Shown here piece after piece: positions 15,694-39,816 of a DNA stretch of 64,000 nucleotides; the stretch's first letter is position 1, and every line of letters begins with the position of its first letter. Source of the stretch: a phage. The translations under genes were made by a program, and so were the position numbers. The DNA lies in sequence record OZ335964.1; one strand, given 5' to 3'. The notes below the pieces were generated by a model that saw only the letters and a program-made list of their open reading frames with translations, was not told the DNA's origin and ran no database searches.

Positions 15694-15699
15694 TAGATT

Positions 15700-23390: not shown

Positions 23391-23429
23391 GGGAGACTCC
23401 CATTATAGAGAATCTCCCTTGTATGTCAA
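23391..23429 (-). promoter_or_regulatory. early promoter/stem-loop cassette (variant)
   Basis: Minus strand reads TTGACA-tacaa-GGGAGATTCTC-TATAAT-GGGAGTCTCCC. Confidence 0.5.
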
Positions 23430-23989
23430 CTAAAATTTAAAGATGCAAACTCCCCGTGATGAATTTTTGCATATTCATCATATGCTCTAGCGGCTTCCTC
23501 CTGAGTAGCAAACGATCCTATGTATTTTCTGTATCCGTTTATCCTTATTTGTGCTTGCCACGGTCTTTTGCTAGATCCTTTGCGATGAGTAACACCATTA
23601 TATATGCTCGTGCACCCGTCCATTTTCTTTTTATTGTACATGTTTTGTTGTTGTGTTGCCTCCCGTAAATTTGGTGGATTGTTGTTTTCTGGATTCCCGT
23701 CTATGTGGTCTATTACCTTAACCTGTGTTCCATATTCAAGAAACCAGACAATTCTATGTACAAGATATGTAGATGTTCTCTTTTTAACCTTATTGTAAAC
23801 ATCTATTGCCAAATGACCGTAATTTAACTTTTTTGTTTTTACTTTATCACCGACTCGGTAGAAATATCCCTCTGGTAGACCATTAAAAGACGGACTATTT
23901 GTTTTGTGATATAGAACACCTTCCGTGTGTTCAAATCTGCGTTTTAATTCCTCTTGAATTTCAGTATTCCAAAATTTCGCACTTTTCAT
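23426..23989 (-). CDS. HNH homing endonuclease (HNH_3 + AP2 domain)
   Basis: IDHIDGNPENNNPPNLREATQQQN HNH motif; C-terminal AP2-like GVTHRKGSSKRPWQAQIRINGYRKYIGSFATQEEAARAYDEYA; ATG 1 nt after the topo II large-subunit stop. Confidence 0.8.
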   Translation of the reverse strand: MKSAKFWNTEIQEELKRRFEHTEGVLYHKTNSPSFNGLPEGYFYRVGDKVKTKKLNYGHLAIDVYNKVKKRTSTYLVHRIVWFLEYGTQVKVIDHIDGNPENNNPPNLREATQQQNMYNKKKMDGCTSIYNGVTHRKGSSKRPWQAQIRINGYRKYIGSFATQEEAARAYDEYAKIHHGEFASLNFS

Positions 23990-23990
23990 A

Positions 23991-25814
23991 TTATGACGCC
24001 ATCCATGCCTTCCTCATGTCTGAATCTTCACTATAGAGCAAATCGAATAGCTCTTTATAGTTTTCCGGTAACGTGATGATTTCCATTACAGGATCGTTGA
24101 TCACGCGATGATAATCTGATTCTGTAAGCGATGCTAACCCTTTGATATATCGAATGTTGTAACCTTTGATATTATCGCGATCGTTCTCGAAATCTTCTAG
24201 GTCATAATACCATCGAACATCATCACCTTTCTTTGGTTCCGCAATGATAATAGGTGTTTTGATAAACCGGATTCGTCCATCTTCGAACAATTCAGGCCAA
24301 CGAGCAAAGAAAGAGATCAGACTAGGTTTAATAGACCCGATGCCGTCAGTATCAGCGTCAGTCATAATCGCAATATTTTTGTATTGCATAACTTCCAGCG
24401 CATCAACACCAAATTGCAAACCAGTGATCGCCATGATGTTAAAAATTTCGGCGTTCTTAACGATCTTTGCCTCCGGTTGTTCCCACGTTGTAAGAGTTTT
24501 GCCTCGCAACGGGAAACCGCCATGTAAATCTTGATCACGTACAGAGATCAGATAGTTGATCGCGGAATCACCTTCCGTCAAAAACAGGGTAGTTTCTGCG
24601 TCAGTTCCAATAAGGTTAGCTTTAACGTGTTTTGCTACCTTAGCCCGTTTTGCTGCCTTTGCTGCCTTAGTCGCTGCCGCTTTATCTGCTGCCTCTTTGC
24701 GTGCCAAAACTACAGCAATAATAGGCATGATAATGTTTTCTTTCTTCGCAATGACTTTAGCCAGTTTTTTAAAATCCAGATCAATGTGTCGCTTGATATC
24801 ACCAGTTGGATTAGTCAAGCGTTCTTTTGTCTGTGAATCAAAACGAAGGTTAGGCAATTCACGAACAATAAGAATACAGGTCAATCCAGACTTAACCGCA
24901 GCTTTAGTAACATCAACCTTATATTCTTTCTTGATTCGTTTTACAATCTCTTCACAAAGATCATCTGTCACGTAGTCTACGTGTGTTCCCCCGTTTTTGG
25001 TAAACAGACCATTAGCAAATGATACTGATTTAAAACCTTCACCTTCAACCGCAGGAACTAGGGCAAGTGAAAAGTTTTTATCTTCAATGACAAACGGATC
25101 ATCATTGTATAGTTTAGCATAATCCTTGAACTTACTAACAATACGTTTACCATTAAACTTAAACGTGATCTTAGGAAAGATTACGCTCAATGATTGCAGA
25201 CGATCATGAACAATATCTAAAACAGAGTTGTCCATCATATAACCTTCGAAGTGGTCGAAGTCTGGGCAAAATGTAACCTTTGTTCCCTTCAATTTTGATG
25301 GTTTTGATGACCATGTGATATTTTCAGCACCGTTTGTGCACTGTACGGTCATTTCTGTTTCGCCGTCACAGGTCACACCAGTAAACCAATCGCTAAAGAA
25401 ATTTGACAACGACGATCCTACGCCGTTCATCCCTTGCGTGAGTCGATTTGTATCATCAAAGTTAGACCCTGCTTTTGTTCGTGTCCAAGCGGCTACAGGT
25501 TGCGGAATCTGCGTGCCCTCTGGGGTAGTAACCATATGTTGAGGAATACCGCGACCATTGTCTGTTACCGTAACAATATTGTTTTGGATATCGACGCTAA
25601 TCACATTGGCAAATTCAAAGTTAGTGCGGATCGCCTCGTCTACAGAGTTGTCGATGATCTCATCAATGATTTTAACCAGTCCAGGAACGTATGAAATTTT
25701 TGTCCACTTACCGAACAGGAAACGTTGATGTTCTTCGTATGTAGTTGACCCTATGTACATCCCAGCACGCTTAAGGACATGTTCACGATCAGATAAAATG
25801 CGGAACTCACTCAT
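23991..25814 (-). CDS. 39: DNA topoisomerase II large subunit (GyrB-like; gp39 and gp60 fused)
   Basis: 607 aa; GHKL N-box IIDNSVDEA, G1 DNGRGIP, C-terminal TOPRIM (LFLTEGDSA, IMTDADTDG); contiguous frame, so no gene-60-type split or bypass. Confidence 0.85.
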   Translation of the reverse strand: MSEFRILSDREHVLKRAGMYIGSTTYEEHQRFLFGKWTKISYVPGLVKIIDEIIDNSVDEAIRTNFEFANVISVDIQNNIVTVTDNGRGIPQHMVTTPEGTQIPQPVAAWTRTKAGSNFDDTNRLTQGMNGVGSSLSNFFSDWFTGVTCDGETEMTVQCTNGAENITWSSKPSKLKGTKVTFCPDFDHFEGYMMDNSVLDIVHDRLQSLSVIFPKITFKFNGKRIVSKFKDYAKLYNDDPFVIEDKNFSLALVPAVEGEGFKSVSFANGLFTKNGGTHVDYVTDDLCEEIVKRIKKEYKVDVTKAAVKSGLTCILIVRELPNLRFDSQTKERLTNPTGDIKRHIDLDFKKLAKVIAKKENIIMPIIAVVLARKEAADKAAATKAAKAAKRAKVAKHVKANLIGTDAETTLFLTEGDSAINYLISVRDQDLHGGFPLRGKTLTTWEQPEAKIVKNAEIFNIMAITGLQFGVDALEVMQYKNIAIMTDADTDGIGSIKPSLISFFARWPELFEDGRIRFIKTPIIIAEPKKGDDVRWYYDLEDFENDRDNIKGYNIRYIKGLASLTESDYHRVINDPVMEIITLPENYKELFDLLYSEDSDMRKAWMAS

Positions 25815-25913
25815 TATTAAACCTCTTCATAACATAACCATAACTTACTGCAACCGCCACAAAGACGGCTGCAACAATCATATTAAAAATTGAGTGATTG
25901 TCAAGTATATGAC

Positions 25914-26087
25914 TCATGACACGCGCACATTTTTATCGTAATACCCGCCATTAATCCCGCGCGGGGCAGTCAATCCCTGTTTGCATTCTTTACCGCATTC
26001 AGGGCATTCTGCCTTTTCACGCTCGGAAATTTTGCGGATTTTCTGAAATTGACCGTGTTCTTCACAAGAATAATCGTATAATGGCAT
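25914..26087 (-). CDS. small zinc-ribbon protein (FmdB-like, 57 aa)
   Basis: Track ORF trimmed to M28; YSCEEHGQF...CPECGK pairs of cysteines. Confidence 0.5.
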   Translation of the reverse strand: MPLYDYSCEEHGQFQKIRKISEREKAECPECGKECKQGLTAPRGINGGYYDKNVRVS

Positions 26088-26088
26088 A

Positions 26089-26757
26089 TTATCCCCTTTG
26101 TTTCTTAACTGAATTTGGATCTGGATTTTCTGGTAGGTCTTCCAGACCCATAGCATAACGTTGTGCATAGATTAGCATAAGAATATCGCGAGCGCAATCA
26201 TGAATTGCATCATGTGCGATAAAACCATCTAGCGTACCCATTGGTAACGGACACTCACACATCCCGCGATGCATCAATGTACGCTCAATGGCGGTGCGAA
26301 CATCTCGGATGTTCCAGAATCGCACAGGTTCAAGATTGAACGTCTCTCGTGTATTGTGTGCATCGCGGATCATATCAACTAGTAACGGAATATCAAACGC
26401 ATTACCGCGTGACCACATTACGGATTTAACCGGATCTATTCCTACGGATTCACAGAATGCGTTAAAACGCGCTAAACCTTCTTTAGTTGATACTTCCGTA
26501 CCATTTGTGATTAATTGCTTTCTCATGCCTTCTGAGGCGGTATTCTTCCACCATTCAACCACACCATGATCAAACACCCTTACACCTTTCTGGGAAGGAA
26601 TATCAAATTTTACCAGAAAGGAGTTGTCAACCAGTTCTTTAAATGTAGGTGGATTGTGCGGATCTTCTTTAAATCCGATTGCCGCCATATTGATCACCGC
26701 CCCATCAGGTGGATAACCTAAACTTTCAAAGTCAATCATTAAATCCACTGGAAGCAT
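26089..26757 (-). CDS. dexA: exonuclease A (DexA, DEDD-type)
   Basis: Track ORF trimmed to M25 (MLPVDLMIDFESLG); DEDD-type exonuclease blocks (IDFE, WWKN, TLDGFIAHDAIHDCARD). Confidence 0.8.
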   Translation of the reverse strand: MLPVDLMIDFESLGYPPDGAVINMAAIGFKEDPHNPPTFKELVDNSFLVKFDIPSQKGVRVFDHGVVEWWKNTASEGMRKQLITNGTEVSTKEGLARFNAFCESVGIDPVKSVMWSRGNAFDIPLLVDMIRDAHNTRETFNLEPVRFWNIRDVRTAIERTLMHRGMCECPLPMGTLDGFIAHDAIHDCARDILMLIYAQRYAMGLEDLPENPDPNSVKKQRG

Positions 26758-26758
26758 T

Positions 26759-27001
26759 TTAAATATCCTCCGCGATGTGCCGGAATAACTCCAGATCATT
26801 TTTATCAAGAATGAAACCGCTACAATCAATAATTCCTTTACCGTAATTATCGGTTAATAGTCGGTCCGTTGCCATGTATGCGCGTACTTTGTTGTTAAAA
26901 TTCATTACATGTTGTGCATAGTCACAATGAATCTTTTGACGGTTCCACGCGACAATTGATTCAAGATGAATTACCTTAGAGATATCGTTAATAACAACCA
27001 T
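26759..27001 (-). CDS. hypothetical protein (80 aa)
   Basis: ATG with GAGGT SD. Confidence 0.5.
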   Translation of the reverse strand: MVVINDISKVIHLESIVAWNRQKIHCDYAQHVMNFNNKVRAYMATDRLLTDNYGKGIIDCSGFILDKNDLELFRHIAEDI

Positions 27002-27002
27002 A

Positions 27003-27170
27003 TCAAAAACCTCGCTTAGTGAAATGTTCGATCATTTTATTGATACATGCAGCTTCACTATCGCCGGACACATTCCAGCCATATAGACCCCATCTAAAAC
27101 ACATGGTAACAGTTCCATTGTGACGGCTTACCGTCACATCATTAAATTCTGGGATACTTCGCATAATCAT
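27003..27170 (-). CDS. hypothetical small protein (55 aa)
   Basis: Not in ORF track; ATG with GAGGAA SD overlapping the dda stop; MIMRSIPEFNDVTVSRHNGTVTMCFRWGLYGWNVSGDSEAACINKMIEHFTKRGF. Confidence 0.4.
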   Translation of the reverse strand: MIMRSIPEFNDVTVSRHNGTVTMCFRWGLYGWNVSGDSEAACINKMIEHFTKRGF

Positions 27171-27180
27171 AATAATTTCC

Positions 27181-28572
27181 TCAAATATAGTCTACTCGAT
27201 ACCGCGCACGGGTAACACCCACATATAATAACTGCATTGCCAATTCAAAGTCAACATTGTCTGTACACATGCAAGGAGTATACAGGAACACGCGGTCTAC
27301 GCTTATCCCTTGTGACTTATGAATGGTGCAAGCTGGTAATGCTTTTACATTCAAGAACATACGTTTCATCGTCCAGAAGGAATCCCAATCTGGTTTAAAT
27401 TTTGGATTCTCTTTCTTCATTTCGCGATATTGTCCGGCGACCGTATTCAGATAGATAGAGAAAATGTTCTTCTGACGTTGTTCTGTCAGAATGTTGATTT
27501 CTACTAAATCCGGTTTATCTGTAGTGATTCCGACTGCATCTAAACCGACTTTCTGATTTAGGATTTCTTTGTCTTCGTCATCATCGACGCTTTCCACTTT
27601 CAGAGTATAGCCTAAAACTGGTTGCGGATCTACCCCTGTGCAACGTAATGTAAATTCGCGCGGGATAACCTCTTTAACTCGGATCATCTCACCATTGTTA
27701 AAAATAACATTGGGAATCTTCTTCCCGCGTTCATCTCGCAGATATTCGATCAACGGTTCCTGAGTAACCAGAATTTCATCTACAATCACTGGTTCATCGG
27801 TGTTATAAACGCGCTTACGCACAATTTCATTGAGTTTTTCGACGCTCTTGTTAGTGTAGGCCAGAATACGGTTTTCCAACAAGTCTTCCGGCGTTTTAAC
27901 AGCTTCAAAATAATGTTTCATGAACTCTGGCAGCGTTGAGCTATGGAATACACCCTCGTTGTCGCACTGCTTTTCGAATACCCATTTACCGTTACGGACA
28001 GCAGTCGCCACATCAATTATTGGCGCATTAGATCGTTTAATCTCTGTAAGTTCTACATTCTGGAACCTTTCATCTGTGAAGAAAGGAGAGATCGACGTTG
28101 CACCGCTCGGATCAACTGGTCGTAACTGGTACAGATCACCCACGGCAATAATAACAATTCGACCGTTGATACTCTTCATGAGAATATCAAATAGTTTCTT
28201 ATCGACCATACTCGCTTCATCAACAATGATGATCTGAACATCATCTAGCTTAGGAGTATCTTTTTGTTCAAATACTTGAGTATCTTCATAGTTGGTTGGA
28301 TTTAGTCGCAGTAGTGCATGTAAAGTAAATGCTTGACGACCTACCGCCTTACTCAAAACTTTTTTAGCCTGGTGGGTAGGCGTTGCCAAAACCACACCAG
28401 TTACACCACGGCGGACCATTTCCTGGACAATGAATTTCATCATTGCGGTTTTACCAGTACCCGCCGCACCACGGACAGTTGTATGCTTCTTTTGTTCAAT
28501 GCGTTTCATTAGAACATCAAAAGCATGTTTTTGTCCGTCTGTCAACATATCGAAAGTTAATACTCTGCTCAT
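27181..28572 (-). CDS. dda: Dda DNA helicase (SF1)
   Basis: Walker A GAAGTGKT, Walker B IIIVDEASM, and C-terminal block LYVGVTRAR. Confidence 0.85.
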   Translation of the reverse strand: MSRVLTFDMLTDGQKHAFDVLMKRIEQKKHTTVRGAAGTGKTAMMKFIVQEMVRRGVTGVVLATPTHQAKKVLSKAVGRQAFTLHALLRLNPTNYEDTQVFEQKDTPKLDDVQIIIVDEASMVDKKLFDILMKSINGRIVIIAVGDLYQLRPVDPSGATSISPFFTDERFQNVELTEIKRSNAPIIDVATAVRNGKWVFEKQCDNEGVFHSSTLPEFMKHYFEAVKTPEDLLENRILAYTNKSVEKLNEIVRKRVYNTDEPVIVDEILVTQEPLIEYLRDERGKKIPNVIFNNGEMIRVKEVIPREFTLRCTGVDPQPVLGYTLKVESVDDDEDKEILNQKVGLDAVGITTDKPDLVEINILTEQRQKNIFSIYLNTVAGQYREMKKENPKFKPDWDSFWTMKRMFLNVKALPACTIHKSQGISVDRVFLYTPCMCTDNVDFELAMQLLYVGVTRARYRVDYI

Positions 28573-28886
28573 TATCCTAAAATCCTCACCTTGCGAACAC
28601 AGATAGTATTGAGTTCTCGCCGTACCCGTTCTTTTTCATATTCAGGAATTTTGTATTCTATACCATCCCGAACAATTTCAGAAGACCGGATTATACCAAA
28701 TTTTCGTTTAGGCACAACCTTGTATTTCGGTTCACCTGCCAATAGACTCTCACAATAATCTATCTGATCACACATTGACGCTAAAGCTGCATCATGTGTT
28801 TCGCAAGTTAGGACGCGACCTTTCGCGTCCACTGAGTATTGAAAGAATCCGTCTTTATCACGATAACATACAGCAAATACATGCAT
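28572..28886 (-). CDS. hypothetical protein (104 aa)
   Basis: TAATG overlap with dda start (translational coupling). Confidence 0.5.
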   Translation of the reverse strand: MHVFAVCYRDKDGFFQYSVDAKGRVLTCETHDAALASMCDQIDYCESLLAGEPKYKVVPKRKFGIIRSSEIVRDGIEYKIPEYEKERVRRELNTICVRKVRILG

Positions 28887-29641: not shown

Positions 29642-29702
29642 AATTGATTCTCCTTAGTTGGTATGTGTGTATTATTGTCTATCTGGTTTGTGCTGTCAAC
29701 AC

Positions 29703-30239: not shown

Positions 30240-30324
30240 ATAATAAAACCATTATAGAGTAGTGTCAATCACAAAGTGTATGTGATCTATAAATAAGTTT
30301 GCTAGAACTAAAGGAGACCACAAA

Positions 30325-31254
30325 ATGAACTATAAACGTATTTATGATAACCTGATTGAACGTGCTAAGACTAGAACTATCGACGGATATACAGAAAAGC
30401 ATCACATCATACCACGTTGTATGAATGGAAGCGATGATGATAGCAATCTAGTTAGACTCACCCCAGAGGAACATTACATTGCTCACCTTCTGTTAGTTAA
30501 GATTTACCCAGATAACAGTAAATTGGTTTATGCTGCAAATATGATGTGCGTTTCTTCTGATTCACATAATGGAGAAAGACAGTCAAATAAACGTCATGGT
30601 TGGTTGCGTAGAAAAATGGCAGAGGCACATAGTAAAAGAATCCGCGATAGAATGGAGAACGATCCTGAATATAGAGCTAAGGTTTCGGAATGGGCTAGAA
30701 AAATGGGTAAAGCCATGAAAGGAGTTAAGCGAGGACCGGAATTTAGCAGAAAGTTGGCAGAAAGAAACAGAAATACCGTGATGAAAGAAGAAACTAAACG
30801 TAAAATCGGGGAAGCCAACAAAGGAAGGAAACGTACAGAAGAATATAAAAGAAAACATAGTGAGCGGTATAAGGGTGAAGGTAATCCGATGTATGGTAAA
30901 CGAGGAAAGGAACATCCGGCATATGGTACTAAACCGTGGAACAACCAAACATCATTTGTTGAGCAGAAAGCATGGTGGCGGTTCGCTGGCATGTTCTATG
31001 ACTGGTATCAGATGGATATTGACCGTGGGAAACATAAACGCCACGGTCATAAAAGAATGCTTGATGAATTGGGTTTTGTTGGTTGGCGAGAAAAAGAGCC
31101 AGCCGCAGCAAGACGATCAATTGAAATGTTTGCTAAAGGCTGGAATCCTTATGAAGACCAAGAATGGTTAGATTATATTAATACCCGCTTTCCAAACGAC
31201 GATAGTTTTCCGCGTTCTTCAACATATACAAAACAAACAAATCCTTTGCAGTAA
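30325..31254 (+). CDS. HNH homing endonuclease with NUMOD3-like repeats (opposite strand)
   Basis: EKHHIIPRCMNGSDDDSNLVRLTPEEHYIAH HNH motif; repeated GxxNxxYGK motifs; AAGGAG SD; only plus-strand gene in the early region. Confidence 0.8.
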   Translation: MNYKRIYDNLIERAKTRTIDGYTEKHHIIPRCMNGSDDDSNLVRLTPEEHYIAHLLLVKIYPDNSKLVYAANMMCVSSDSHNGERQSNKRHGWLRRKMAEAHSKRIRDRMENDPEYRAKVSEWARKMGKAMKGVKRGPEFSRKLAERNRNTVMKEETKRKIGEANKGRKRTEEYKRKHSERYKGEGNPMYGKRGKEHPAYGTKPWNNQTSFVEQKAWWRFAGMFYDWYQMDIDRGKHKRHGHKRMLDELGFVGWREKEPAAARRSIEMFAKGWNPYEDQEWLDYINTRFPNDDSFPRSSTYTKQTNPLQ

Positions 31255-31696
31255 GACCTAATGCTAGGAATTTACACATAATAAAATGGAGTTGGTCCAC
31301 CGCCTCTAGGTATGTTTCGAGACGATCCGCCTCTGGCAAATCACTAAAGAGGCGGTTTCGTGCTTCCATGTGATTTGCTTTCCAGTGTTTCCATACCGCG
31401 CTCGCGTCCTTCCCGTTAGACATTCCACCTAATGCAGTATACAATTCTCGTGTTTCGTCGTCAAGAGCATTATCATTCGCTCGAATAAAATCTAAAATTT
31501 CTCCACACGTTTTCAATTCGTCAATTTTTGCTACCCACGGACGGTCCTTAGACACCTGATCCTGTAACGCTTTTTGCATATTCATCATGTGTTGGAACGG
31601 GTTATCACCGTTGGCGATGATTTCTTTATATTTTTCTTCTGCAAAATTCAGAGTTTCCGCATTTACTAAGTGTGCACAAGAATTAAATTCTGACAT
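31178..31696 (-). CDS. 56: dCTP/dUTP pyrophosphatase gp56 (MazG-type all-alpha NTP-PPase)
   Basis: Track ORF trimmed to M3 with GAGGTGA SD; conserved blocks CAHL, ASAVWKHWKA, YMLKNAENY...GY. Confidence 0.7.
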   Translation of the reverse strand: MSEFNSCAHLVNAETLNFAEEKYKEIIANGDNPFQHMMNMQKALQDQVSKDRPWVAKIDELKTCGEILDFIRANDNALDDETRELYTALGGMSNGKDASAVWKHWKANHMEARNRLFSDLPEADRLETYLEAVDQLHFIMCKFLALGLTAKDLFVLYMLKNAENYRRLESGY

Positions 31697-31710
31697 ATTC
31701 ACCTCATTAA

Positions 31711-32739
31711 TTAAAATTTACAATATTTCATAAACCGCATTTTAGCCATCAGACCTTGTACGGTGTTCTCTTTGATATATTCCATGATCTGGTCGCGTGT
31801 AGCGCCCTCGTCCTGAATCATGGCGTTAACGTCTTTAGAATGCCACGGGCAACGGTCCCACAATACAATCTTTTCCCCTGCATTGATAAACTTTTCCAGT
31901 CGGTGCATTGTATCGGCTGACCGTGGTTCCGCATCAAGTACAAACACTCGCTGGTCTGGGAAAGGTATTTCATCTAATCCCAAAGTACCGCCAGTAATTG
32001 CACACCCGTTATCAATAAACAATGAATCGATCGGACCTTCTAAGAAATACACTGGTTTGCTCGGATCGGCGCGTTCAAGACCATAGACCTTACTCGCTAA
32101 CTCATGAGTTTTAATCGTCATATATTTGGTCTTTCCGTAATCCTTTCTCAATGCTCGCCCCTGAATGGATTCTATCTTGTTCTCACGGTTAAAGATAGGA
32201 ATCACTAAACGCGGTTCAGGTTGTGGATTCTTGAAAGTATCAGCTTTAATGTGATTTGCTACCTTTTGCCATTCTCTCGTGAAATACAGAAGATCCCATT
32301 TATCGTGAGGAATACAGCGATCACTAACATACTTTACTATAGGATGATTAGCCGGAAGAGTATCTAATCTCTCGCAGAAAGGCAATGTTTGCACTTTCTT
32401 AATCTCCGGCTTTTCTACCTTTTTCAGTGGCTTGAACGTGGTGTTCTTGTGGTCGCCTTGTTCCTTCCGTCTCTCCATAAGCCATTCCCTGAATAGGTCC
32501 GGCTTATACTGTTTGAGAAATTCACCTAACGGCTGATTGTAGTTACAGTTGAAACAACCACAACGCAAACTATCCTTATAGGTATAGATACGGAATCGCG
32601 CCATTGTGCTATTCTTTTTGGAATCTCCGCAGATCGGACAACTTGCTACTAACGTAAATGAGTTAGTATGTAACCGCTTGAAATTTCGTTCGCCGTATAA
32701 TGCTTTTTCGGCTATTTCATAATCTGCGTAGTAAATCAT
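31711..32739 (-). CDS. 61: DNA primase gp61
   Basis: Zinc ribbon CPICGDS...CFNCNY; TOPRIM blocks (EGPIDSLF, VLDAEPR); GAGGAT SD. Confidence 0.85.
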   Translation of the reverse strand: MIYYADYEIAEKALYGERNFKRLHTNSFTLVASCPICGDSKKNSTMARFRIYTYKDSLRCGCFNCNYNQPLGEFLKQYKPDLFREWLMERRKEQGDHKNTTFKPLKKVEKPEIKKVQTLPFCERLDTLPANHPIVKYVSDRCIPHDKWDLLYFTREWQKVANHIKADTFKNPQPEPRLVIPIFNRENKIESIQGRALRKDYGKTKYMTIKTHELASKVYGLERADPSKPVYFLEGPIDSLFIDNGCAITGGTLGLDEIPFPDQRVFVLDAEPRSADTMHRLEKFINAGEKIVLWDRCPWHSKDVNAMIQDEGATRDQIMEYIKENTVQGLMAKMRFMKYCKF

Positions 32740-32746
32740 AAGATCC

Positions 32747-33310
32747 TCACTGTATATTTTTACTTCTTTGCTTTCCTATCCAGATCCGTCTAACTGTTTC
32801 CGCATTAACATCATATATTTTTGCGATCTTTGCCGCAGATCCGGTTCCTTTTAGAGTTTTGATTTCTTCAATCTGATCTTTGGTTAATTTAGCCCAATGG
32901 TGTGCATCACCATAACACGAACTCAGACCGTGTGTCAATGCATGAATCTGATTTTCTGATTGTGTAACCCATTCAAGATTATATAGGTCATGGTTTCTTT
33001 TGTTTCCATCGATATGATTAACAAACGGCAAATTGTTTACGTTTGGTATAAACGCTTCTGCTTTTGCTCTGTGTATGTATATCGATAGAGATTTAACCCT
33101 AGACCCTGAACTAGTTTTATTACCGTAAGGATCTCTGATTCTTGCTACGGCGTATCCACCGCTTCTTCCGGCTACAGATTCTCTATAAATCTTTCCTGTT
33201 TTCTTGTTTCTAATGCGTCCATATGAGCTAACCTCGTAGCCTGGCATTTCGACGCCCATATAAACAAGGTCTTTCCATTCTTCTGGATGTTCGTCACAAT
33301 ACCGTTTCAT
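32747..33310 (-). CDS. HNH homing endonuclease (NUMOD4 + HNH_3 + C-terminal HTH)
   Basis: GYEVSSYGRIRN NUMOD4 motif; VNHIDGNKRNHDLYNLEWVTQSEN HNH; C-terminal HTH AAKIAKIYDVNAETVRRI. Confidence 0.8.
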   Translation of the reverse strand: MKRYCDEHPEEWKDLVYMGVEMPGYEVSSYGRIRNKKTGKIYRESVAGRSGGYAVARIRDPYGNKTSSGSRVKSLSIYIHRAKAEAFIPNVNNLPFVNHIDGNKRNHDLYNLEWVTQSENQIHALTHGLSSCYGDAHHWAKLTKDQIEEIKTLKGTGSAAKIAKIYDVNAETVRRIWIGKQRSKNIQ

Positions 33311-33325
33311 GATGTTATTAACCTC

Positions 33326-34224: not shown

Positions 34225-34254
34225 AATATAGTCTCCTTAGAGTTTCATTATAGA

Positions 34255-34890
34255 TCAAGCGAATGTAGAAAGCAAATGTTTTGTTTCTTTCAGTTGTCGT
34301 TCAAGATCTTTGCGTTTCTCTTTAAGTTGCATTTTAGCATTGTTTCGCTGTTTTTCAACATCTTTATCGATGTGCTTAGTCCAATTATCAATATCAGAAT
34401 AAGTTGGCATACCCAATTCTAAGCCTAATGCGGTTGGATACAGGGTAACAGTCCATAAACCGCTAATCTTCTTAAATAGGTCGGGATGTAGTGTACTACC
34501 TACATCTTCCGGTGTCAACTCTTTTTCTTCTTTCAGTGGTGGGATCTCGTCATATGGTTCCAGCGCATTTACTTTAATATCAGATACCTCATCAAAGAAT
34601 CCGCGTACATCCGCAGGAAATACACAGGCAATTTCCCAACCGTGATCACGCAGAGAAGTAATATTTTTCACTCCCCCACCATGCGTGATGATTGATGTGA
34701 CATTGCCATCAAGGTCCACCGAATTTACGAGAAATGGCTTATCGTCTGTCAGATCATTATAAAACTGTGCTTCGGCTGTAGTCATCTCCAGAAACAGATC
34801 TCGGATCGGACGACCATCAGGTGCGTTACCTTCCTTGAGAGTATAAAAGCGACTTACGATCCATTTTGGCGGTAAAGCATTAGCGATCAT
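34255..34890 (-). CDS. hypothetical protein (211 aa)
   Basis: ATG with AGGAG SD; no recognised motif. Confidence 0.55.
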   Translation of the reverse strand: MIANALPPKWIVSRFYTLKEGNAPDGRPIRDLFLEMTTAEAQFYNDLTDDKPFLVNSVDLDGNVTSIITHGGGVKNITSLRDHGWEIACVFPADVRGFFDEVSDIKVNALEPYDEIPPLKEEKELTPEDVGSTLHPDLFKKISGLWTVTLYPTALGLELGMPTYSDIDNWTKHIDKDVEKQRNNAKMQLKEKRKDLERQLKETKHLLSTFA

Positions 34891-34918
34891 GTTATATCTC
34901 CTATCAAATCATTCACCA

Positions 34919-34934
34919 GCGCCCCGTAGGGCGC
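34919..34934 (-). other. intercistronic GC stem-loop downstream of gene 41
   Basis: GCGCCC-CGTA-GGGCGC hairpin between gp41 stop and the next SD. Confidence 0.35.
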
Positions 34935-34940
34935 ATTTTA

Positions 34941-36353
34941 TTAGAAAGTCATGTTATTTGCTAGCTCGTCGAGTTTTTCTCGTTTCTCGGCTTGCTGTGC
35001 GCTTTGTGGTTTAACTTGTGCATTCTCCTGATCTGCGATCTGGTTTGGAACTTCATACCAACGCTGATTTCCTTTTTTCACACCAACGTTAAACCGTGAA
35101 TAGTAGTTCTTATCGCCGTAACGAGACTTGATCTGCTTCATGAGTTGAACGCCCATTTTAGCAAGGTCTTCGGTTTCGATAACACCCAACATAAAATCGG
35201 CTGTAGCCGGAAGACCTGCTGATTCAGCGGTATCACTCATGTTAAGGTCTGACGCATCCCAACCCGCGCGGGTAGTCTGTGCCGCAGTCCAACCAACAAC
35301 ATCCCACTTAACAAAAAAACCTCGCAGTTCTTCCGCAATCGCCTTAACTAGTGTGTAACTATTTTCAGAGTATACACGCAAGCGAGACGATGCGCAAATC
35401 CCCAGATAGTCAACAATCACAACATCAGGTTTAAACTGTTTCTTGAGTCGCAATTCATTCATTAACGCCTCAAAGTGATTGGAGTTCGCGCCACCAGTCG
35501 GATACTGCTTGATCATCAATTTTCCAACCGGACGATCTCCGATCTTCTTATTCTTAACACGCTTCATACGTGCGGAATATTCCGCAAAAGAAACATTACC
35601 ATTATCCAATTCATCTAATGTAATGTCAAGCAAGTTTGCGTCAATACGTTTGGCTACGACATGCTCTGCCATCTCCATTGAGATATACAATACATCATAA
35701 CCACATTCCATATAATCCGCAGCAAGAGAACACAATCCAAGCGATTTACCAACATTTACACCAGCAAGCAACACATTTAGCGTTTTTCTTTCCGCCCCTC
35801 CTTTCGTGATTTTATTCAACATCGGCAGCTTAAACGGGATCTTATTCGCTTTAGTCTGATATAGCAAGAATCGTTTTTCAAAGTCATTAAACCAGTCATG
35901 ACCTACATCAGAATCAAACGTAATGGATAGTGCTTCCTGCATGATCTCAGGAATAGCTCCCTCACCCGGCAATTTCTTATTCTGTTTCTCTTTTGGTAGT
36001 TGTGCGTTCGCTTGAATCTCTAGCGCCCGTGACATTGCATTGTACATAGCGCGGTCGCGGATAAATTTTTCGGTTTCCTTCATTAACCAATCAAGGTCTT
36101 CCGGTGTATTCTCCAGCGAATCGAGAAGAGTTTTAGCCCCTTCATATGTTGTCTGATTGCCTCTCTCCTTGTCTAAAGCAATCTGTAATGCAGTTGGCGT
36201 AGGAATGTTGGAATATTCGTCTACGTGCTTTTTAATCAGCTTATAAATCAGTTTTTCTTCGTCTTCGGTGAAGTAGTCCGCTTTAAGATGAGGCCATACA
36301 TTCGTAAAGAATGCGCCATTGTAAATCAACTGTGAAAAGATAGTTTTAATCAT
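34941..36353 (-). CDS. 41: replicative DNA helicase gp41 (DnaB family)
   Basis: 470 aa; Walker A GVNVGKS and DnaB-like blocks; located between uvsX and primase as in T4. Confidence 0.9.
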   Translation of the reverse strand: MIKTIFSQLIYNGAFFTNVWPHLKADYFTEDEEKLIYKLIKKHVDEYSNIPTPTALQIALDKERGNQTTYEGAKTLLDSLENTPEDLDWLMKETEKFIRDRAMYNAMSRALEIQANAQLPKEKQNKKLPGEGAIPEIMQEALSITFDSDVGHDWFNDFEKRFLLYQTKANKIPFKLPMLNKITKGGAERKTLNVLLAGVNVGKSLGLCSLAADYMECGYDVLYISMEMAEHVVAKRIDANLLDITLDELDNGNVSFAEYSARMKRVKNKKIGDRPVGKLMIKQYPTGGANSNHFEALMNELRLKKQFKPDVVIVDYLGICASSRLRVYSENSYTLVKAIAEELRGFFVKWDVVGWTAAQTTRAGWDASDLNMSDTAESAGLPATADFMLGVIETEDLAKMGVQLMKQIKSRYGDKNYYSRFNVGVKKGNQRWYEVPNQIADQENAQVKPQSAQQAEKREKLDELANNMTF

Positions 36354-36667
36354 ACATAGCCCCCAACTACACGCATAACAAAGGTCTTGAGTTTATACCA
36401 GAAAGTTTCTTTTTTCAACTTTTCTTCTGCTTCTTTGATTTGCGCTGTTAACGCCTTAATGACGTGAGGATATACCACATCACGATCTGACGGCGTGGAG
36501 TAGTCGACCACAATACCTTTAGTGTCTGGATCGTATTCAACATTATGAATATAGACAATATGATGTTCTCCCTCTTCATCAACAATTATCAATTCCTGAA
36601 TAACTGTCTTCATTGCTTCTTGAATCAAGCCGTGTGCTTCTTCTAAACTGGTTGGTTTCTTATCCAT
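36350..36667 (-). CDS. hypothetical protein (105 aa) at the gene-40 position
   Basis: ATGA overlap with gene 41 start; GAGAGG SD; identity with gp40 not verified. Confidence 0.5.
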   Translation of the reverse strand: MDKKPTSLEEAHGLIQEAMKTVIQELIIVDEEGEHHIVYIHNVEYDPDTKGIVVDYSTPSDRDVVYPHVIKALTAQIKEAEEKLKKETFWYKLKTFVMRVVGGYV

Positions 36668-36688
36668 AATATAATCCTCTCTAGATAT

Positions 36689-36710
36689 GAAAAAGGGGCA
36701 CGTAGCCCCT
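36689..36710 (-). terminator. rho-independent terminator after uvsX
   Basis: Minus-strand hairpin AGGGGC-TACGT-GCCCCT followed by TTTTTC. Confidence 0.55.
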
Positions 36711-36722
36711 TTACTACCATTG

Positions 36723-37793
36723 TTATGCTAACATATCTTCGATTTCTTTGTCAACTGCTTCGTCGCTGATCACTTGCCCCAGCTTATAATGATCGTTGAT
36801 TGCTTCGTTAAACTTATCGTTTGTCAGAAGTGGTTTCCAGAACTCAATGCTATTGGTTTCTTTAGCACGGAACTTGCGTTCTTCGGTTTCCATCTCTCCG
36901 GTCTCCGTATTCAGGATTGAACGAGAATACCAGCCGTTTGACGGTTTCACTACCCAACCTAACTCTACAGCCAACTCCAGCAAACCGGAATAAGGATCGA
37001 TGCCACCGCTAAACGTTACGCTAATCGGGAACTTAGATTTTTCTTTAACGGTTCGTGATTTTTCCGCATTCAGGATAAAATCATAGCCAGTAATTTCGGT
37101 TCCTTCTTTCTGCTGACGACGACCAATAATGAAAACTTCATTGGCTGAATACATCGCGCCCGTACCGCCGGACATAACGGTCTTACTAAACATTTCTTGC
37201 GTTTCGTAAGTGTGGTTAATAGCGATGCACGGGATATCATTCATAGTCAGATATGGCGTCACCATACGGAACAAGCCTTTAAGTGCTTTAGCTCGCGTCA
37301 TATCCTGTGCGGATTTCTCATTAATCGCGTCTTCAACTTCTTTTTTACTTGCTAAGTTACCGATTGAGTCAATAAAGATGATCACTTTATCTTCACGGGT
37401 AATTTGCTCAAGCTGGTTCATGATTTCAAATTTAAGTTCTTCGATGTTCTTGATTGGAACATGCACCACGCGATCAGGATCTACACCCATAGATTCAAGA
37501 TAAGCGGATGTAATACCGAACTCAGAATCAAAGAACAAACACGCCGCATCAGGATTCTGTTTCATGTATGCACTAACGCAAGTTAATCCCATGTTTGATT
37601 TAAAGTGCTTAGACGGACCAGCAAAGAAAATCAGACCAGATTGAAAGCCTTTTTTAAGATCACCGGAAAACGCAATATTCAGCATCGGGATCTTAGTGCG
37701 AGTATTTGTTTTTTCGTTAAAGAAGCTGGATTTAGACAGTACCGCAGTAGTTTTCAGGGTAGAGTTCTTTTTCAGTTTTTCCAGTACAGACAT
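36723..37793 (-). CDS. uvsX: UvsX recombinase (RecA-like)
   Basis: 356 aa; Walker A GPSKHFKS and RecA-fold blocks; AGAGGT SD. Confidence 0.9.
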   Translation of the reverse strand: MSVLEKLKKNSTLKTTAVLSKSSFFNEKTNTRTKIPMLNIAFSGDLKKGFQSGLIFFAGPSKHFKSNMGLTCVSAYMKQNPDAACLFFDSEFGITSAYLESMGVDPDRVVHVPIKNIEELKFEIMNQLEQITREDKVIIFIDSIGNLASKKEVEDAINEKSAQDMTRAKALKGLFRMVTPYLTMNDIPCIAINHTYETQEMFSKTVMSGGTGAMYSANEVFIIGRRQQKEGTEITGYDFILNAEKSRTVKEKSKFPISVTFSGGIDPYSGLLELAVELGWVVKPSNGWYSRSILNTETGEMETEERKFRAKETNSIEFWKPLLTNDKFNEAINDHYKLGQVISDEAVDKEIEDMLA

Positions 37794-37804
37794 TATTAAT
37801 ACCT

Positions 37805-37993
37805 CTATTCAGTTAATCCGTAATACTTTAATTGCTTCATTGTTATTCGATCTTTGTAGTGCTCTTGAATTAACTTTTTCATCGCATCAACATCGATCGT
37901 CACAAATACTTCGTTGCTGTGATTTCCGTGAACTTTCTTGAAATGCTCTATGCCTTCCTCACGTTCACGTTTAATCTTTTCAATGTCTCTCAT
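37805..37993 (-). CDS. hypothetical protein (62 aa)
   Basis: Track ORF starts at GTG; first ATG is M14; only gene in the uvsX-43 gap. Confidence 0.4.
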   Translation of the reverse strand: MRDIEKIKREREEGIEHFKKVHGNHSNEVFVTIDVDAMKKLIQEHYKDRITMKQLKYYGLTE

Positions 37994-38054
37994 AGTATAT
38001 TTCTCACGTTGGCGGGTATCGTCACCCAACACCCGCCATTATACACACTTTATC

Positions 38055-39239
38055 TTAAATGTCAAACAGGTCAGTCAGAGAAGCAACTTTTTCATATTGC
38101 AGCTTTGCAGCCGTGGTAATGTTCTCCAGTGGTTTGACGAAAGTCTTATTAAACAACAAAGGCCAGTCTAACCACTTTAACACCTCGCTTTCAATTTCTG
38201 GAGGAATACGAGTACCGGACAACCAACCAAAACAGATTTCTCCAAACGGATTTCGATCTTTAAGCGGTACGATCATAACCTTCTCGCCTTCACGAATCGG
38301 ATCTAGTCCGAATTTTCGAGCATTACGATTATAACACAATACACTCTTAACCGCATACGGACAACCCTTAATCGGATACCCGTTTGAATCGCTGTATTTC
38401 TGTAGGTTGTTTGCAGATGATACCGCAGCAACCTCAAGATAGTCAAGTTTTCTAAACTCTTGCTCAAAAATACCGTAGTATTCCTGTAGCGATTCTTCCC
38501 CTTCCTGCAACATACGGCGAATACATTCTTTCAGTGATTTCTGACATGCTTTAGGGGTGGAGCTACGTTGCGTTTCCAAGCCCATGATTTTTAGCTTAGG
38601 TTCAGCAAAGCGCGTTCCTTCCATATCCCAAACATTAAGAGCATAACGCTTTTTGCCAGTCCAGAATCCACCGATACCCGCAGATTTCAACGGAGGACCA
38701 GCAATTGCCTCACGGTCCATAAACATCAAGTGCTCATAGTTATTCATGTACTCGCATAACTCGCGATATCCCTTGTCGATAATAGGTTCCATCCGATGTT
38801 TACCGAAATTATCAAGGAAGTCAACAAGTTTTTCGGTATCGTCGAAACGGTCTTCCCCGCCAACCTTATCAACAACATTGTTAACCAGCACATAAACGGA
38901 GTCAGTATCACAATAACGAACATATGCAAAATCAGTTGTTCCGCAAAGCTCGTTTAAGTATTCGTTAATCTTACGCTCAATCCATCTAATAGCGACCTGT
39001 CCAAATAGCGTAATCGCACTAGCATTACGCAGATCGTATAGGCGGAAACGTGGATTCCCAAGCGCGCCATAAAGGCTATTAATCAATACCTTACGAGAAA
39101 GCTGGTTTGTATTACATAAAACCGATTCGTTTTGACAATAGGTTAATAACTGCTTTAACTCATCTACAGACATTGACTCGAATTGTTCTAGCTGTTCGTC
39201 GGTGAAGTCTGAACGAACATCAATATTTTTAATATCCAA
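38055..39239 (-). CDS. 43: DNA polymerase gp43, C-terminal fragment (palm motifs B and C, thumb)
   Basis: Contains KILINSLYGALG (motif B) and YCDTDSVYV (motif C); begins at a TTG preceded by strong GGGGGTGA SD; no in-frame ATG nearby. Confidence 0.85.
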   Translation of the reverse strand: MDIKNIDVRSDFTDEQLEQFESMSVDELKQLLTYCQNESVLCNTNQLSRKVLINSLYGALGNPRFRLYDLRNASAITLFGQVAIRWIERKINEYLNELCGTTDFAYVRYCDTDSVYVLVNNVVDKVGGEDRFDDTEKLVDFLDNFGKHRMEPIIDKGYRELCEYMNNYEHLMFMDREAIAGPPLKSAGIGGFWTGKKRYALNVWDMEGTRFAEPKLKIMGLETQRSSTPKACQKSLKECIRRMLQEGEESLQEYYGIFEQEFRKLDYLEVAAVSSANNLQKYSDSNGYPIKGCPYAVKSVLCYNRNARKFGLDPIREGEKVMIVPLKDRNPFGEICFGWLSGTRIPPEIESEVLKWLDWPLLFNKTFVKPLENITTAAKLQYEKVASLTDLFDI

Positions 39240-39816
39240 TATTTCACCCCCATCAACGATTAATGTATAATTGCATATTCGCCATGATATTGTACTATAT
39301 GCCTATTATACGCGTCAATAGCTTCTTCTTCCGAATCAAAGTATCCTATATGATGCGTCTCGTGGTTTACTGTTATTCGAACACGCCATTTATCATAACC
39401 TCTCACCTTTGAGATTCCTTTGTATTTTGAAGTCCTTCCCTCAATAGAAATTGATCCATTGCTATTAATCTGATTTTCGTTATGAGAAGCCGCCCTTAAA
39501 TTTTCAATTCTATTATTGGTTCGAACTCTATCAACATGATCTATTTGAGTTTTTCCATTAATAGGTCTTTCCTTGCTAGGACAATGACCATGAAACATAT
39601 GGTATATCACACGATGAATTTTTCTAGCTTTGCCATCTATCCAAACTTTGCAATATCCTTGCTTGTCAGGAAACCTCCCGATCACCTGACCTTTTTGTGC
39701 TTGACTGCTGGTAGATATCTTTCTAATCAATATTCCATCGTCATATTGAAATAATCTGTGATAGAGTTCATAAAGTCTCTTATCTTCGTCATTGTAATGA
39801 ATAACTTGATACATCA
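39240..39816 (-). mobile_element. HNH endonuclease cassette interrupting gene 43
   Basis: Free-standing HNH ORF lies exactly between the two halves of an otherwise collinear B-family polymerase. Confidence 0.7.
39260..39814 (-). CDS. HNH homing endonuclease (HNH_3 + AP2 domain) inside gene 43
   Basis: QIDHVDRVRTNNRIENLRAASHNEN HNH motif; AP2-like KYKGISKVRGYDKWRVRI; ATG overlaps the stop of the polymerase N-fragment (TGATG). Confidence 0.85.
   Translation of the reverse strand: MYQVIHYNDEDKRLYELYHRLFQYDDGILIRKISTSSQAQKGQVIGRFPDKQGYCKVWIDGKARKIHRVIYHMFHGHCPSKERPINGKTQIDHVDRVRTNNRIENLRAASHNENQINSNGSISIEGRTSKYKGISKVRGYDKWRVRITVNHETHHIGYFDSEEEAIDAYNRHIVQYHGEYAIIH

What the first reader, a model, noticed from the sequence alone, without database searches (positions are those of the whole stretch)
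23426..39814. Four HNH homing endonuclease genes in one 16-kb stretch
HNH ORFs lie at 23426-23989 (abutting the 3' end of the fused topo II large-subunit gene), 30325-31254 (the only plus-strand gene in the early block, converging on and overlapping gp56 by 77 nt), 32747-33310 (between gp61 and the gp41 side), and 39260-39814 (inside gene 43). The topo II large subunit is contiguous here, with the HNH gene after it rather than splitting it as in T4 genes 39/60. This marks a region of active mobile-element traffic.
Basis: partly seen in the sequence, partly recalled or inferred. Interest (0 to 1): 0.45.

Follow-up and report, generated by a model that had tools for sequence, protein, structure and literature searches.

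The report
Four homing endonucleases; split phage polymerase
This RB49-like T4-type coliphage carries four selfish HNH endonuclease genes beside its replication genes; one cuts the DNA polymerase gene into two separately translated halves, a known kind of event not seen before in this phage genus.

Summary
All four ORFs exist at the stated coordinates and match HNH profiles. They belong to three architectures: HNH-AP2 (#1, #4), HNH+NUMOD3 (#2) and NUMOD4-HNH-HTH (#3).

The window is a Krischvirus, about 96-97% identical to 59 phage records. RB49 lacks all four genes. Near-identical DNA for #1 is in 9 records, #2 in 3, #3 in 7 and #4 in none.

Each HNH sits beside a locally diverged patch of an essential replication gene:
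- the last 27 nt of gene 39;
- the whole of gene 56 (58% nt identity against a 97% background);
- nt 30-138 of gene 61;
- the fingers tip of gene 43.

This is the signature of intronless homing with co-conversion.

HNH #4 is not in an intron or intein. It splits gene 43 into 43A (495 aa) and 43B (394 aa). The 43A stop and HNH start overlap (TGATG), and 43B has its own ribosome-binding site. All three cistrons are under strong purifying selection.

The split point matches the characterised split in Aeromonas phage 25. It also recurs in Gaprivervirus, Hadassahvirus and Ishigurovirus with different cargo.

Verdict: a real, well-understood phenomenon and a new member of a known kind. Interest is modest.

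The parts
23426..23989 (-). HNH #1: free-standing HNH_3-AP2 homing endonuclease gene (187 aa). It is inserted between the gene 39 stop codon and the downstream TTGACATAC...TATAAT promoter/terminator.
   Evidence: Pfam/PHROG; junction alignment; 99-100% identical copies in 9 phage records, absent from RB49 and ECD7.
23991..25814 (-). Gene 39 (fused 60+39 topoisomerase II large subunit, 607 aa). Its last 27 nt (23991-24017) are recoded in all HNH #1-bearing alleles, making this the probable target/immunity patch.
   Evidence: Annotation of relatives. All 11 positions that separate HNH+ from HNH- alleles lie at 23988-24017; alignment.
30269..31673 (.). Cassette #2: a 1405-nt segment that replaces 503 nt of RB49. 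It contains the late promoter, HNH #2 and almost the whole of a diverged gene 56 allele.
   Evidence: Window versus RB49 blastn.
30288..30295 (+). TATAAATA, a T4-type late promoter consensus 37 nt upstream of the HNH #2 ATG and followed by an AAAGGAG ribosome-binding site. It is the only such motif on either strand in 22-42 kb.
30325..31254 (+). HNH #2: N-terminal HNH plus NUMOD3 homing endonuclease gene (309 aa, phrog_655). It converges on gene 56 and overlaps it by 77 nt.
   Evidence: dN/dS 0.09-0.14 versus JSE and G37-3. 43%-identical homologues in Slopekvirus are also convergent with gene 56.
31178..31696 (-). Gene 56 (dCTPase), the allele linked to HNH #2. It is 58% nt and 56% aa identical to the RB49/ECD7 allele, and is shared only with JSE and G37-3.
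32747..33310 (-). HNH #3: NUMOD4-HNH_3-HTH (I-HmuI-like) homing endonuclease gene (187 aa). It is a 567-nt insert between the old Shine-Dalgarno and the ATG of gene 61, and the cassette supplies a new Shine-Dalgarno for gene 61.
   Evidence: PDB 1U3E E=7e-5.
32602..32710 (-). Diverged patch in the 5' part of gene 61 (gene 61 = 31711-32739), with 25 substitutions linked to HNH #3. The same patch is present in HNH-less JK32, where it is a footprint.
39814..41301 (-). Gene 43A: N-terminal 495 aa of the DNA polymerase. It corresponds to RB49 gp43 residues 1-489 plus the tail KKRGEL. The stop TGA overlaps the HNH #4 ATG (TGATG), and the HNH Shine-Dalgarno GAGGTGA lies in the tail codons.
   Evidence: Aligns to RB69 gp43 residues 4-504. 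dN/dS 0.03.
39260..39814 (-). HNH #4: HNH_3-AP2 homing endonuclease gene (184 aa) lying between 43A and 43B.
   Evidence: The AP2 domain is confirmed by PDB hits 7wq5 and 7et4. No DNA match and at most 46% aa identity in 50,697 phage records. 89% and 82% relatives occur in metagenomic contigs with the same architecture. dN/dS 0.04-0.05.
38055..39239 (-). Gene 43B: C-terminal 394 aa of the DNA polymerase (RB49 residues 503-892). It has its own Shine-Dalgarno GGGGGTGA and a TTG start; the ATG used in L006 and L008 reads ATA here.
   Evidence: dN/dS 0.04-0.08.
39138..39851 (-). A 714-nt segment with no DNA-level match to RB49. It comprises HNH #4 plus about 156 nt of diverged fingers-tip coding sequence, and replaces 146 nt of RB49 gene 43.
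   Evidence: No phage record carries this fingers-tip sequence.

Best explanation
The four ORFs are independent free-standing homing endonuclease genes (HEGs) from three HNH architectures. They have invaded the DNA-replication gene block of a Krischvirus (RB49-like T4-type coliphage).

Inferred mechanism, by analogy with T4 SegF, SegG and MobE: in a mixed infection, each enzyme cuts the HEG-less allele of the adjacent essential gene. The likely targets are the 3' end of gene 39, gene 56, the 5' end of gene 61 and the fingers-tip region of gene 43. The phage's own recombination-dependent repair then copies the HEG, together with the flanking cleavage-resistant sequence, into the cut genome.

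What the sequence shows directly:
- presence/absence polymorphism of each HEG at a fixed site;
- a tightly localised diverged patch in the neighbouring gene that co-segregates with each HEG;
- expression signals built into each cassette.

HNH #1 and #4 are promoter-less and start 1 nt after, or overlapping, the upstream stop codon. HNH #3 takes over the ribosome-binding site of gene 61 and donates a new one. HNH #2 is antisense to the early genes and sits behind its own late promoter.

HNH #4 has converted gene 43 into two cistrons, 43A and 43B, at the distal tip of the fingers domain. The two polypeptides presumably reassemble into an active split polymerase, as was shown biochemically for the same split point in Aeromonas phages 25 and 44RR.
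For: Domain identity.

Genome identity and polymorphism.

Precise junctions.

Co-segregating patches. All 11 partitioning positions at site 1 lie at 23988-24017. All 25 at site 3 lie at 32602-32710. Gene 56 is replaced by an allele of 58% nt identity, found only in the three HNH #2 carriers. 146 nt of gene 43 are replaced.

Footprint of HEG loss: JK32 has the gene 61 patch without the HEG.

Selection: dN/dS is 0.04-0.05 for HNH #4, 0.09-0.14 for HNH #2 and 0.03-0.08 for 43A and 43B.

The split is not an assembly artefact: contigs from three metagenomic samples show the same 43A-HNH-43B structure (two of them, L006 and L007, are identical in sequence).

No intron RNA in the window, whereas the ECD7-type insert at motif A does hit the group I intron model.

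The late promoter is inside cassette #2.

Split point: it equals RB69 residue about 504, the fingers tip, and coincides with the phage 25 43A/43B split.

Literature. T4 segF sits at soc/56 and targets 56; mobA sits at 60.1/39 and targets 39. The split 43A and 43B of phage 25 co-purify and have polymerase activity (PMC2988022). Variable HEG content of RB49, Phi1 and JSE is tabulated in PMC2993671.
Against: No cleavage or homing has been demonstrated for any of the four enzymes, so target sites are inferred only from patch positions.

The gene 61 patch also occurs without the HEG (JK32), so patch and HEG are separable.

HNH #4 is far more diverged between carriers (dS 1.3-2.7) than the flanking polymerase gene (dS about 0.2). 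Simple recent homing does not by itself explain this.

The window's 43B lacks the ATG used by its relatives and would start at TTG, so efficient 43B expression in this particular genome is unproven.

No regulatory RNA hairpins were found at the junctions.
Confidence: 0.85

Rival explanations
1. The HNH genes are no longer mobile. They are domesticated or retained because they benefit the phage. For example, they might exclude competing Krischvirus genomes in co-infection, or HNH #4 might be needed for coupled expression or assembly of the split polymerase.
For: Strong purifying selection on HNH #4 and #2. HNH #4 alleles are much older than the flanking gene 43 sequence. The 43A stop and HNH start overlap, which ties HNH translation to polymerase translation. 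HEG-mediated exclusion of T2 by T4 is described in PMC2993671.
Against: Purifying selection is equally expected for an actively homing element. All four are rare or absent in most sequenced relatives, which replicate without them. Phage 44RR is reported to have the same kind of gene 43 split without any HEG (PMC2988022), so a HEG is not required for a split polymerase.
Confidence: 0.1
2. The gene 43 interruption is a self-splicing group I intron or an intein carrying the HNH, so a contiguous polymerase is restored after splicing.
For: Other Krischviruses (JSE, ECD7, G5211, JK32) do have a group I intron in gene 43 (PMC2993671). The depositors of AB-Navy71 annotated the equivalent interruption as an intron.
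Against: No Rfam hit anywhere in 22-42 kb at E<=1. Outside the 555-nt HNH ORF the insert has 0 nt upstream and about 20 nt downstream, leaving no room for an intron core. 43A ends in an in-frame stop, and 43B has its own Shine-Dalgarno and start codon, an ATG in L006 and L008. The HNH is in a different frame, so it is not an in-frame intein. AB-Navy71 also has a stop plus a Shine-Dalgarno and ATG at the junction.
Confidence: 0.03
3. The cluster is an assembly chimera or decaying HEG remnants (pseudogenes), not a functional arrangement in a viable phage.
For: The window's 43B lacks the ATG of its relatives. No single sequenced phage carries all four HNH genes.
Against: All four ORFs are full length with intact HNH motifs. 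#1 and #3 are 99-100% identical to genes in isolated phages. The 43A-HNH-43B structure is reproduced in other contigs. dN/dS is far below 1. The combination is what recombination among co-circulating Krischviruses would produce.
Confidence: 0.02

Closest known systems
Aeromonas phage 25 gene 43A - seg43(25) - 43B (Petrov, Ratnayaka & Karam 2010, as summarised in PMC2988022)
   Same: A PolB gene 43 of a T4-like phage split into two cistrons with a free-standing HEG between them. The split point coincides within about 2-4 residues: 43A is 498 aa versus 495 aa, and both 43B start just before '(R)DF(T/N)D'. The halves were reported to co-purify and be active.
   Different: The HEG there is a 267-aa GIY-YIG seg-like enzyme preceded by a 44-nt spacer with a stable hairpin. 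Here it is a 184-aa HNH-AP2 enzyme whose start overlaps the 43A stop. Phage 25 also has a group I intron in 43B. The hosts and genera differ (Tulanevirus, Aeromonas).
T4 segF / gene 56 intronless homing (Belle, Landthaler & Shub 2002; Table 1 of PMC2988022)
   Same: A free-standing HEG inserted next to gene 56 (dCTPase), with gene 56 as target. The gene 56 allele is inherited together with the HEG. In the window, HNH #2 is physically interlocked with a diverged gene 56 allele.
   Different: SegF is listed as GIY-YIG, and as a hybrid in the review's figure; it is promoter-less and co-oriented with its neighbours. HNH #2 is an HNH+NUMOD3 enzyme, convergent with gene 56 and behind its own late promoter. 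Cleavage is untested here.
T4 mobA at genes 60/39 and Aeh1 mobE in nrdA
   Same: HNH-family free-standing HEGs associated with the topoisomerase large-subunit gene (mobA) or splitting an essential gene into two functional cistrons (mobE in nrdA) (PMC2988022).
   Different: In the window gene 39 is not split. HNH #1 sits after its stop codon, and only the last 9 codons are recoded.
Other fingers-tip split gene 43 loci: Gaprivervirus TH15, Hadassahvirus AB-Navy71, Ishigurovirus Aswh_1
   Same: The same split point in gene 43, with a stop after '...E.IK..L..' and a new Shine-Dalgarno plus ATG before '..DF/DY T(D/E)'.
   Different: The cargo differs: a 237-aa GIY-YIG ORF in TH15, five small ORFs in AB-Navy71 and an 81-aa ORF in Aswh_1. 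None is an HNH-AP2.
JSE/ECD7 gene 43 group I intron
   Same: The same genus, the same gene, a mobile insertion.
   Different: It is inserted in catalytic motif A (DLTSL|YPS, about codon 402), matches Rfam RF00028 (E=9e-6, below the gathering score), and carries a NUMOD3 ORF or its remnant. The window lacks it. Contig L008 has both insertions.

Membership tests
Free-standing homing endonuclease genes of T4-like phages (intronless homing) | Encodes a nuclease domain of a HEG family (HNH or GIY-YIG) fused to a DNA-binding module | tested here: met
   HNH_3+AP2 (#1, #4), HNH+NUMOD3 (#2) and NUMOD4+HNH_3+HTH (#3).
Free-standing homing endonuclease genes of T4-like phages (intronless homing) | Sporadic presence/absence at a fixed site among closely related genomes | tested here: met
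   Present in 9, 3, 7 and 0 of about 59 Krischvirus records, always at the same site. RB49 is empty at all four sites.
Free-standing homing endonuclease genes of T4-like phages (intronless homing) | Localised diverged (co-converted or cleavage-resistant) tract in the adjacent target gene, linked to the HEG | tested here: met
   Gene 39 last 27 nt; whole of gene 56; gene 61 nt 30-138; gene 43 fingers tip.
Free-standing homing endonuclease genes of T4-like phages (intronless homing) | Site-specific cleavage of the HEG-less allele, and super-Mendelian inheritance in mixed infection | not testable with these tools
   Requires enzyme assays and phage crosses.
HEG-split essential gene (Aeh1 nrdA/mobE; phage 25 43A/seg/43B) | The gene is contiguous in close relatives but here forms two cistrons, with a stop codon and a new ribosome-binding site and start, and a HEG between them | tested here: met
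   RB49 gp43 is 892 aa and contiguous. The window has 43A of 495 aa, HNH of 184 aa and 43B of 394 aa, with a TGATG overlap and a Shine-Dalgarno for 43B.
HEG-split essential gene (Aeh1 nrdA/mobE; phage 25 43A/seg/43B) | Both halves are maintained by purifying selection | tested here: met
   dN/dS 0.03-0.08 for 43A and 43B versus L006 and RB49.
HEG-split essential gene (Aeh1 nrdA/mobE; phage 25 43A/seg/43B) | The halves assemble into an active enzyme | not testable with these tools
   Inferred from phage 25/44RR biochemistry (PMC2988022) and from the split lying at the solvent-exposed fingers tip.
Group I intron-encoded HEG | The HEG is embedded in a self-splicing group I intron RNA core that interrupts the host gene | tested here: not met
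   No Rfam match at E<=1 in 22-42 kb. Only about 20 nt of non-ORF insert. Positive control: the ECD7 insert hits RF00028.
Intein | In-frame insertion translated as one polypeptide with the host protein | tested here: not met
   43A ends in TGA, and the HNH and 43B are in different frames with their own starts.
HNH-AP2 endonucleases (category in Table 5 of PMC2993671) | HNH_3 nuclease domain followed by an AP2-type DNA-binding domain | tested here: met
   #1: HNH_3 51.8 bits; AP2 E=1.4e-5, 25.7 bits, below Pfam's 33.3-bit cut-off. #4: HNH_3 49.6 bits; residues 122-182 match plant AP2/ERF structures 7wq5 (E=5e-4) and 7et4. #1 and #4 align over their full length at 30% identity.
I-HmuI-like HNH endonucleases | Sequence similarity to I-HmuI across the NUMOD4/HNH region | tested here: met
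   HNH #3 residues 11-131 match 1U3E residues 2-107 at E=7e-5; NUMOD4 and HNH_3 in Pfam. Nicking versus double-strand cutting was not tested.

The most novel reading that the evidence does not exclude
The fingers tip of T4-type PolB may be more than a tolerant loop. It may be a long-lived 'docking bay' that moves between genera as a module (split junction plus flanking exon patch), with interchangeable cargo: GIY-YIG, HNH-AP2, small ORFs or nothing. The Krischvirus HNH-AP2 lineage would then be an old resident, maintained by selection rather than a transient parasite. Pointers in this direction are the saturated synonymous divergence between HNH #4 alleles inside a nearly uniform polymerase gene, and the fact that the window's fingers-tip patch resembles split-type polymerases of other genera (41-54% identity) at least as much as it resembles RB49 (34%).
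Probability: 0.15. Interest if true: 0.55.

Novelty: new member of a known kind. Interest (0 to 1): 0.32.

Why it matters
The finding adds a well-documented natural example of how homing endonucleases remodel essential phage replication genes.

- **Four elements in one genome.** Four independent elements each carry a clear target-gene footprint, which makes specific cleavage sites directly testable.
- **A new split polymerase.** This is a split PolB in a coliphage genus that was known only for an intron in that gene. The split is at the same structural point used in at least four other genera, which marks the fingers tip as a general site for splitting PolB enzymes.
- **A caution for annotators.** At least one deposited genome calls the same interruption an intron.

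Nothing here changes the current understanding of homing.

Tried and rejected
**Intron hypothesis for the gene 43 interruption.** An Rfam E-value scan of 22-42 kb found nothing, and there is no room for an intron core. Rejected.

**Intein.** Rejected on reading frames and stop codons.

**Regulatory hairpins.** I looked for hairpins sequestering the HNH ribosome-binding sites, as in I-TevI and mobE. Folds of four junctions were no better than shuffles, with z-scores from -0.2 to +0.6.

**More HNH #4 carriers.**
- The exact protein is not on record.
- IMG/VR scans found nothing.
- The metagenome scan found only a 47%- and a 31%-identical relative.

**Donor of the fingers-tip patch.**
- A protein search with the 43B head returned only short fragments and did not recover L006, so it was uninformative.
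- tblastn of the patch found no donor closer than 43-50%.
- The patch identity matrix rests on too few columns to support common ancestry of the split-type junctions.

**Donor of the gene 56 allele.** It is equidistant (54-56% aa) from the RB49 and Slopekvirus gp56, so the donor is unknown.

**Literature.** Petrov 2010 JMB and Belle 2002 are not held in the library. Their content is cited only through the reviews PMC2988022 and PMC2993671. No paper was found on a Krischvirus split polymerase.
Full report
**1. The observation**

The four ORFs exist as described. All four match HNH profiles well beyond chance (Pfam; PHROGs, E=1e-37 to 5e-78).
- HNH #1 (23426-23989, minus strand) and HNH #4 (39260-39814, minus strand) are HNH_3 enzymes with a C-terminal AP2-type DNA-binding domain. 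They are 30% identical over their full length. HNH #4 residues 122-182 match plant AP2/ERF structures.
- HNH #2 (30325-31254, plus strand) has an N-terminal HNH followed by NUMOD3 repeats.
- HNH #3 (32747-33310, minus strand) is NUMOD4-HNH_3-HTH and matches I-HmuI, PDB 1U3E.

So these are four separate acquisitions, not duplications. No other HNH-like ORF occurs in the 64-kb window. GC and AT skew reverse sign exactly over HNH #2, as expected for a real plus-strand gene.

**2. Genomic context**

The window belongs to a Krischvirus, the RB49/Phi1/JSE group of T4-like coliphages. It is 96-97% identical to 59 phage records. The flanking genes are rIIA, 39 (fused 60+39), dexA, dda, srd, modB, 56, 61, 41, 40, uvsX, 43, regA, 62 and 44.

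A whole-window comparison with RB49 shows that the four HNH-associated segments are the only large insertions in the early-gene block. They measure 589, 1405, 567 and 714 nt. The window in turn lacks RB49's own HNH-AP2 gene beside gene 47.

**3. Polymorphism**

| Element | Records with near-identical DNA |
|---|---|
| HNH #1 | 9 |
| HNH #2 | 3 (G37-3; JSE twice) |
| HNH #3 | 7, plus a 56%-identical variant at the same site in FL20 |
| HNH #4 | none |

The best tblastn identity for HNH #4 in 50,697 phage records is 46%. No record listed carries both #1 and #3, so the window is a recombinant mosaic.

Across the genus this ~20-kb block has at least eight HEG or intron sites:
- the gene 39 3' end;
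- the gene 39 5' side (G5211, JK32);
- modB/56;
- the gene 61 5' end;
- uvsX/40;
- gene 43 motif A (intron);
- the gene 43 fingers tip;
- regA/43.

Variable HEG content in this group was already tabulated by Petrov et al.: RB49 2, Phi1 2, JSE 7 (PMC2993671).

**4. Junction anatomy**

*Site 1.* The cassette lies between the gene 39 stop codon and the downstream TTGACATAC...TATAAT promoter/terminator, with no target-site duplication. The HNH ATG is 1 nt after the stop. All 11 positions that separate HNH-bearing from HNH-less alleles lie at 23988-24017, in and immediately next to the last 27 nt of gene 39.

*Site 2.* The inserted segment (30269-31673) carries three things.
- It holds a TATAAATA late promoter, the only one on either strand in 22-42 kb.
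- It holds the HNH gene.
- It holds almost all of gene 56, in an allele only 58% nt (56% aa) identical to the RB49/ECD7 allele.

That allele occurs only in the HNH #2 carriers. Homologues of HNH #2 at 43-44% identity in Slopekvirus phages are also convergent with gene 56. This lineage therefore looks specialised on gene 56. It parallels T4 segF, which is inserted at soc/56 and targets 56 (PMC2988022).

*Site 3.* A 567-nt insert sits between the Shine-Dalgarno and the ATG of gene 61. The HNH uses the old ribosome-binding site, and the cassette supplies a new one. Twenty-five linked substitutions cluster in gene 61 nt 30-138. JK32 has this patch without the HNH, which is a footprint of loss or of co-conversion without HEG transfer.

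*Site 4.* See section 5.

**5. The split polymerase gene**

RB49 gp43 is a contiguous 892 aa. In the window:
- 43A (39814-41301) corresponds to residues 1-489 plus the tail KKRGEL;
- 43B (38055-39239) corresponds to residues 503-892 after four new residues;
- about 146 nt around the break cannot be aligned to RB49 at the DNA level.

The 43A stop overlaps the HNH ATG (TGATG). The HNH Shine-Dalgarno lies in the tail codons, and 43B has its own Shine-Dalgarno. There is no intron: Rfam finds nothing, and only about 20 nt of the insert lies outside the HNH ORF. The ECD7/JSE interruption is different. It lies in motif A (DLTSL|YPS) and matches the group I intron model.

Contigs from three metagenomic samples carry the same 43A-HNH-43B structure (two of them identical in sequence), with HNH proteins 89% and 82% identical to HNH #4. 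One of them also has the motif A insert.

dN/dS is 0.04-0.05 for the HNH and 0.03-0.08 for 43A and 43B, so all three cistrons are functional.

The break aligns to RB69 gp43 residue about 504. From my knowledge of the RB69 structure, where the fingers span roughly residues 469-572, that is the tip of the fingers domain.

**6. Comparison with known systems**

The split point coincides with that of Aeromonas phage 25, which has 43A of 498 aa, a GIY-YIG HEG and then 43B. The halves of that enzyme are reported to co-purify and to be active (PMC2988022).

I found the same split point in three further genera:
- Gaprivervirus TH15, with GIY-YIG cargo;
- Hadassahvirus AB-Navy71, with five small ORFs. 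It is annotated as an intron but has a stop plus a Shine-Dalgarno and ATG;
- Ishigurovirus Aswh_1.

The window is therefore the first HNH-AP2 occupant of this site, and the first Krischvirus example, in the collections searched. It is a new member of a known kind.

**7. Open points**

- HNH #4 alleles are saturated at synonymous sites (dS 1.3-2.7), while the flanking gene 43 has dS of about 0.2.
- The window's 43B lacks the ATG of its relatives: ATG TTA has become ATA TTG.
- The fingers-tip patch has no identifiable donor. Its slightly greater similarity to other split-type polymerases rests on about 29 columns.
- No enzyme activity has been tested.

Noticed in passing
window 39236-39245 (minus strand): The 43B start codon ATG seen in relatives L006 and L008 reads ATA in the window, and the next codon is TTG instead of TTA. 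43B would therefore have to start at a weak TTG, unless this is a base-calling error.
   Followed up: partly
window 49202-49206: The window lacks RB49ORF040c, the HNH-AP2 gene that RB49 carries beside gene 47. The flanks join cleanly, giving a fifth HEG presence/absence polymorphism, this time in the opposite direction.
   Followed up: partly
L008 (ENA ERZ27235451 k119_3354), 400-945: A 1.9-kb metagenomic contig has gene 43 interrupted twice: by an intron-like insert directly after DLTSL (motif A), and by the HNH-AP2 split further downstream.
   Followed up: partly
L006 11144-11893; L007 9252-10001: Metagenomic Krischvirus contigs carry a 249-aa ORF with an I-TevI-type DNA-binding domain between uvsX and gene 40. 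This is another HEG site, analogous to T4 segA at uvsX.
   Followed up: no
L009-L012 (for example L009 8001-8531): A 46%-identical relative of HNH #4 (P0003) sits free-standing between regA and an intact gene 43 in other Krischvirus contigs. Related HNH-AP2 enzymes therefore occupy two different sites around the same gene.
   Followed up: partly
L022 (Acinetobacter phage AB-Navy71) about 1230-3000: The polymerase interruption annotated as an 'intron' is really a split gene. It has a stop codon after ...IKKLIK and a GGAG Shine-Dalgarno plus ATG before MNLDFSRDF, with five small ORFs in between. This is probably a mis-annotation in the public record.
   Followed up: partly
L021 (phage 25) 9417-9460; L022 about 2945-2975: Hairpins with a shared ATGATAAAAT loop sequence occur in the gene 43 intercistronic regions of phage 25 and AB-Navy71. 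They may be a common intercistronic element.
   Followed up: no
L018 (JK32) 8989-10017: JK32 has no HNH at the gene 61 site but carries the HNH #3-linked gene 61 patch. This is a likely footprint of HEG loss or of co-conversion without HEG transfer.
   Followed up: yes
L005 (G5211) 5021-5749; L018 (JK32) 3263-3991: A 729-nt 'endonuclease' ORF lies immediately upstream of gene 39 in some Krischviruses but is absent from the window and from RB49.
   Followed up: no
window 9580-11038, 12428-12635, 15667-15902: Segments in the tail-fibre gene 37 region and in two short early-region stretches have no, or only 71% identical, match to RB49. These are ordinary host-range and accessory variation.
   Followed up: no
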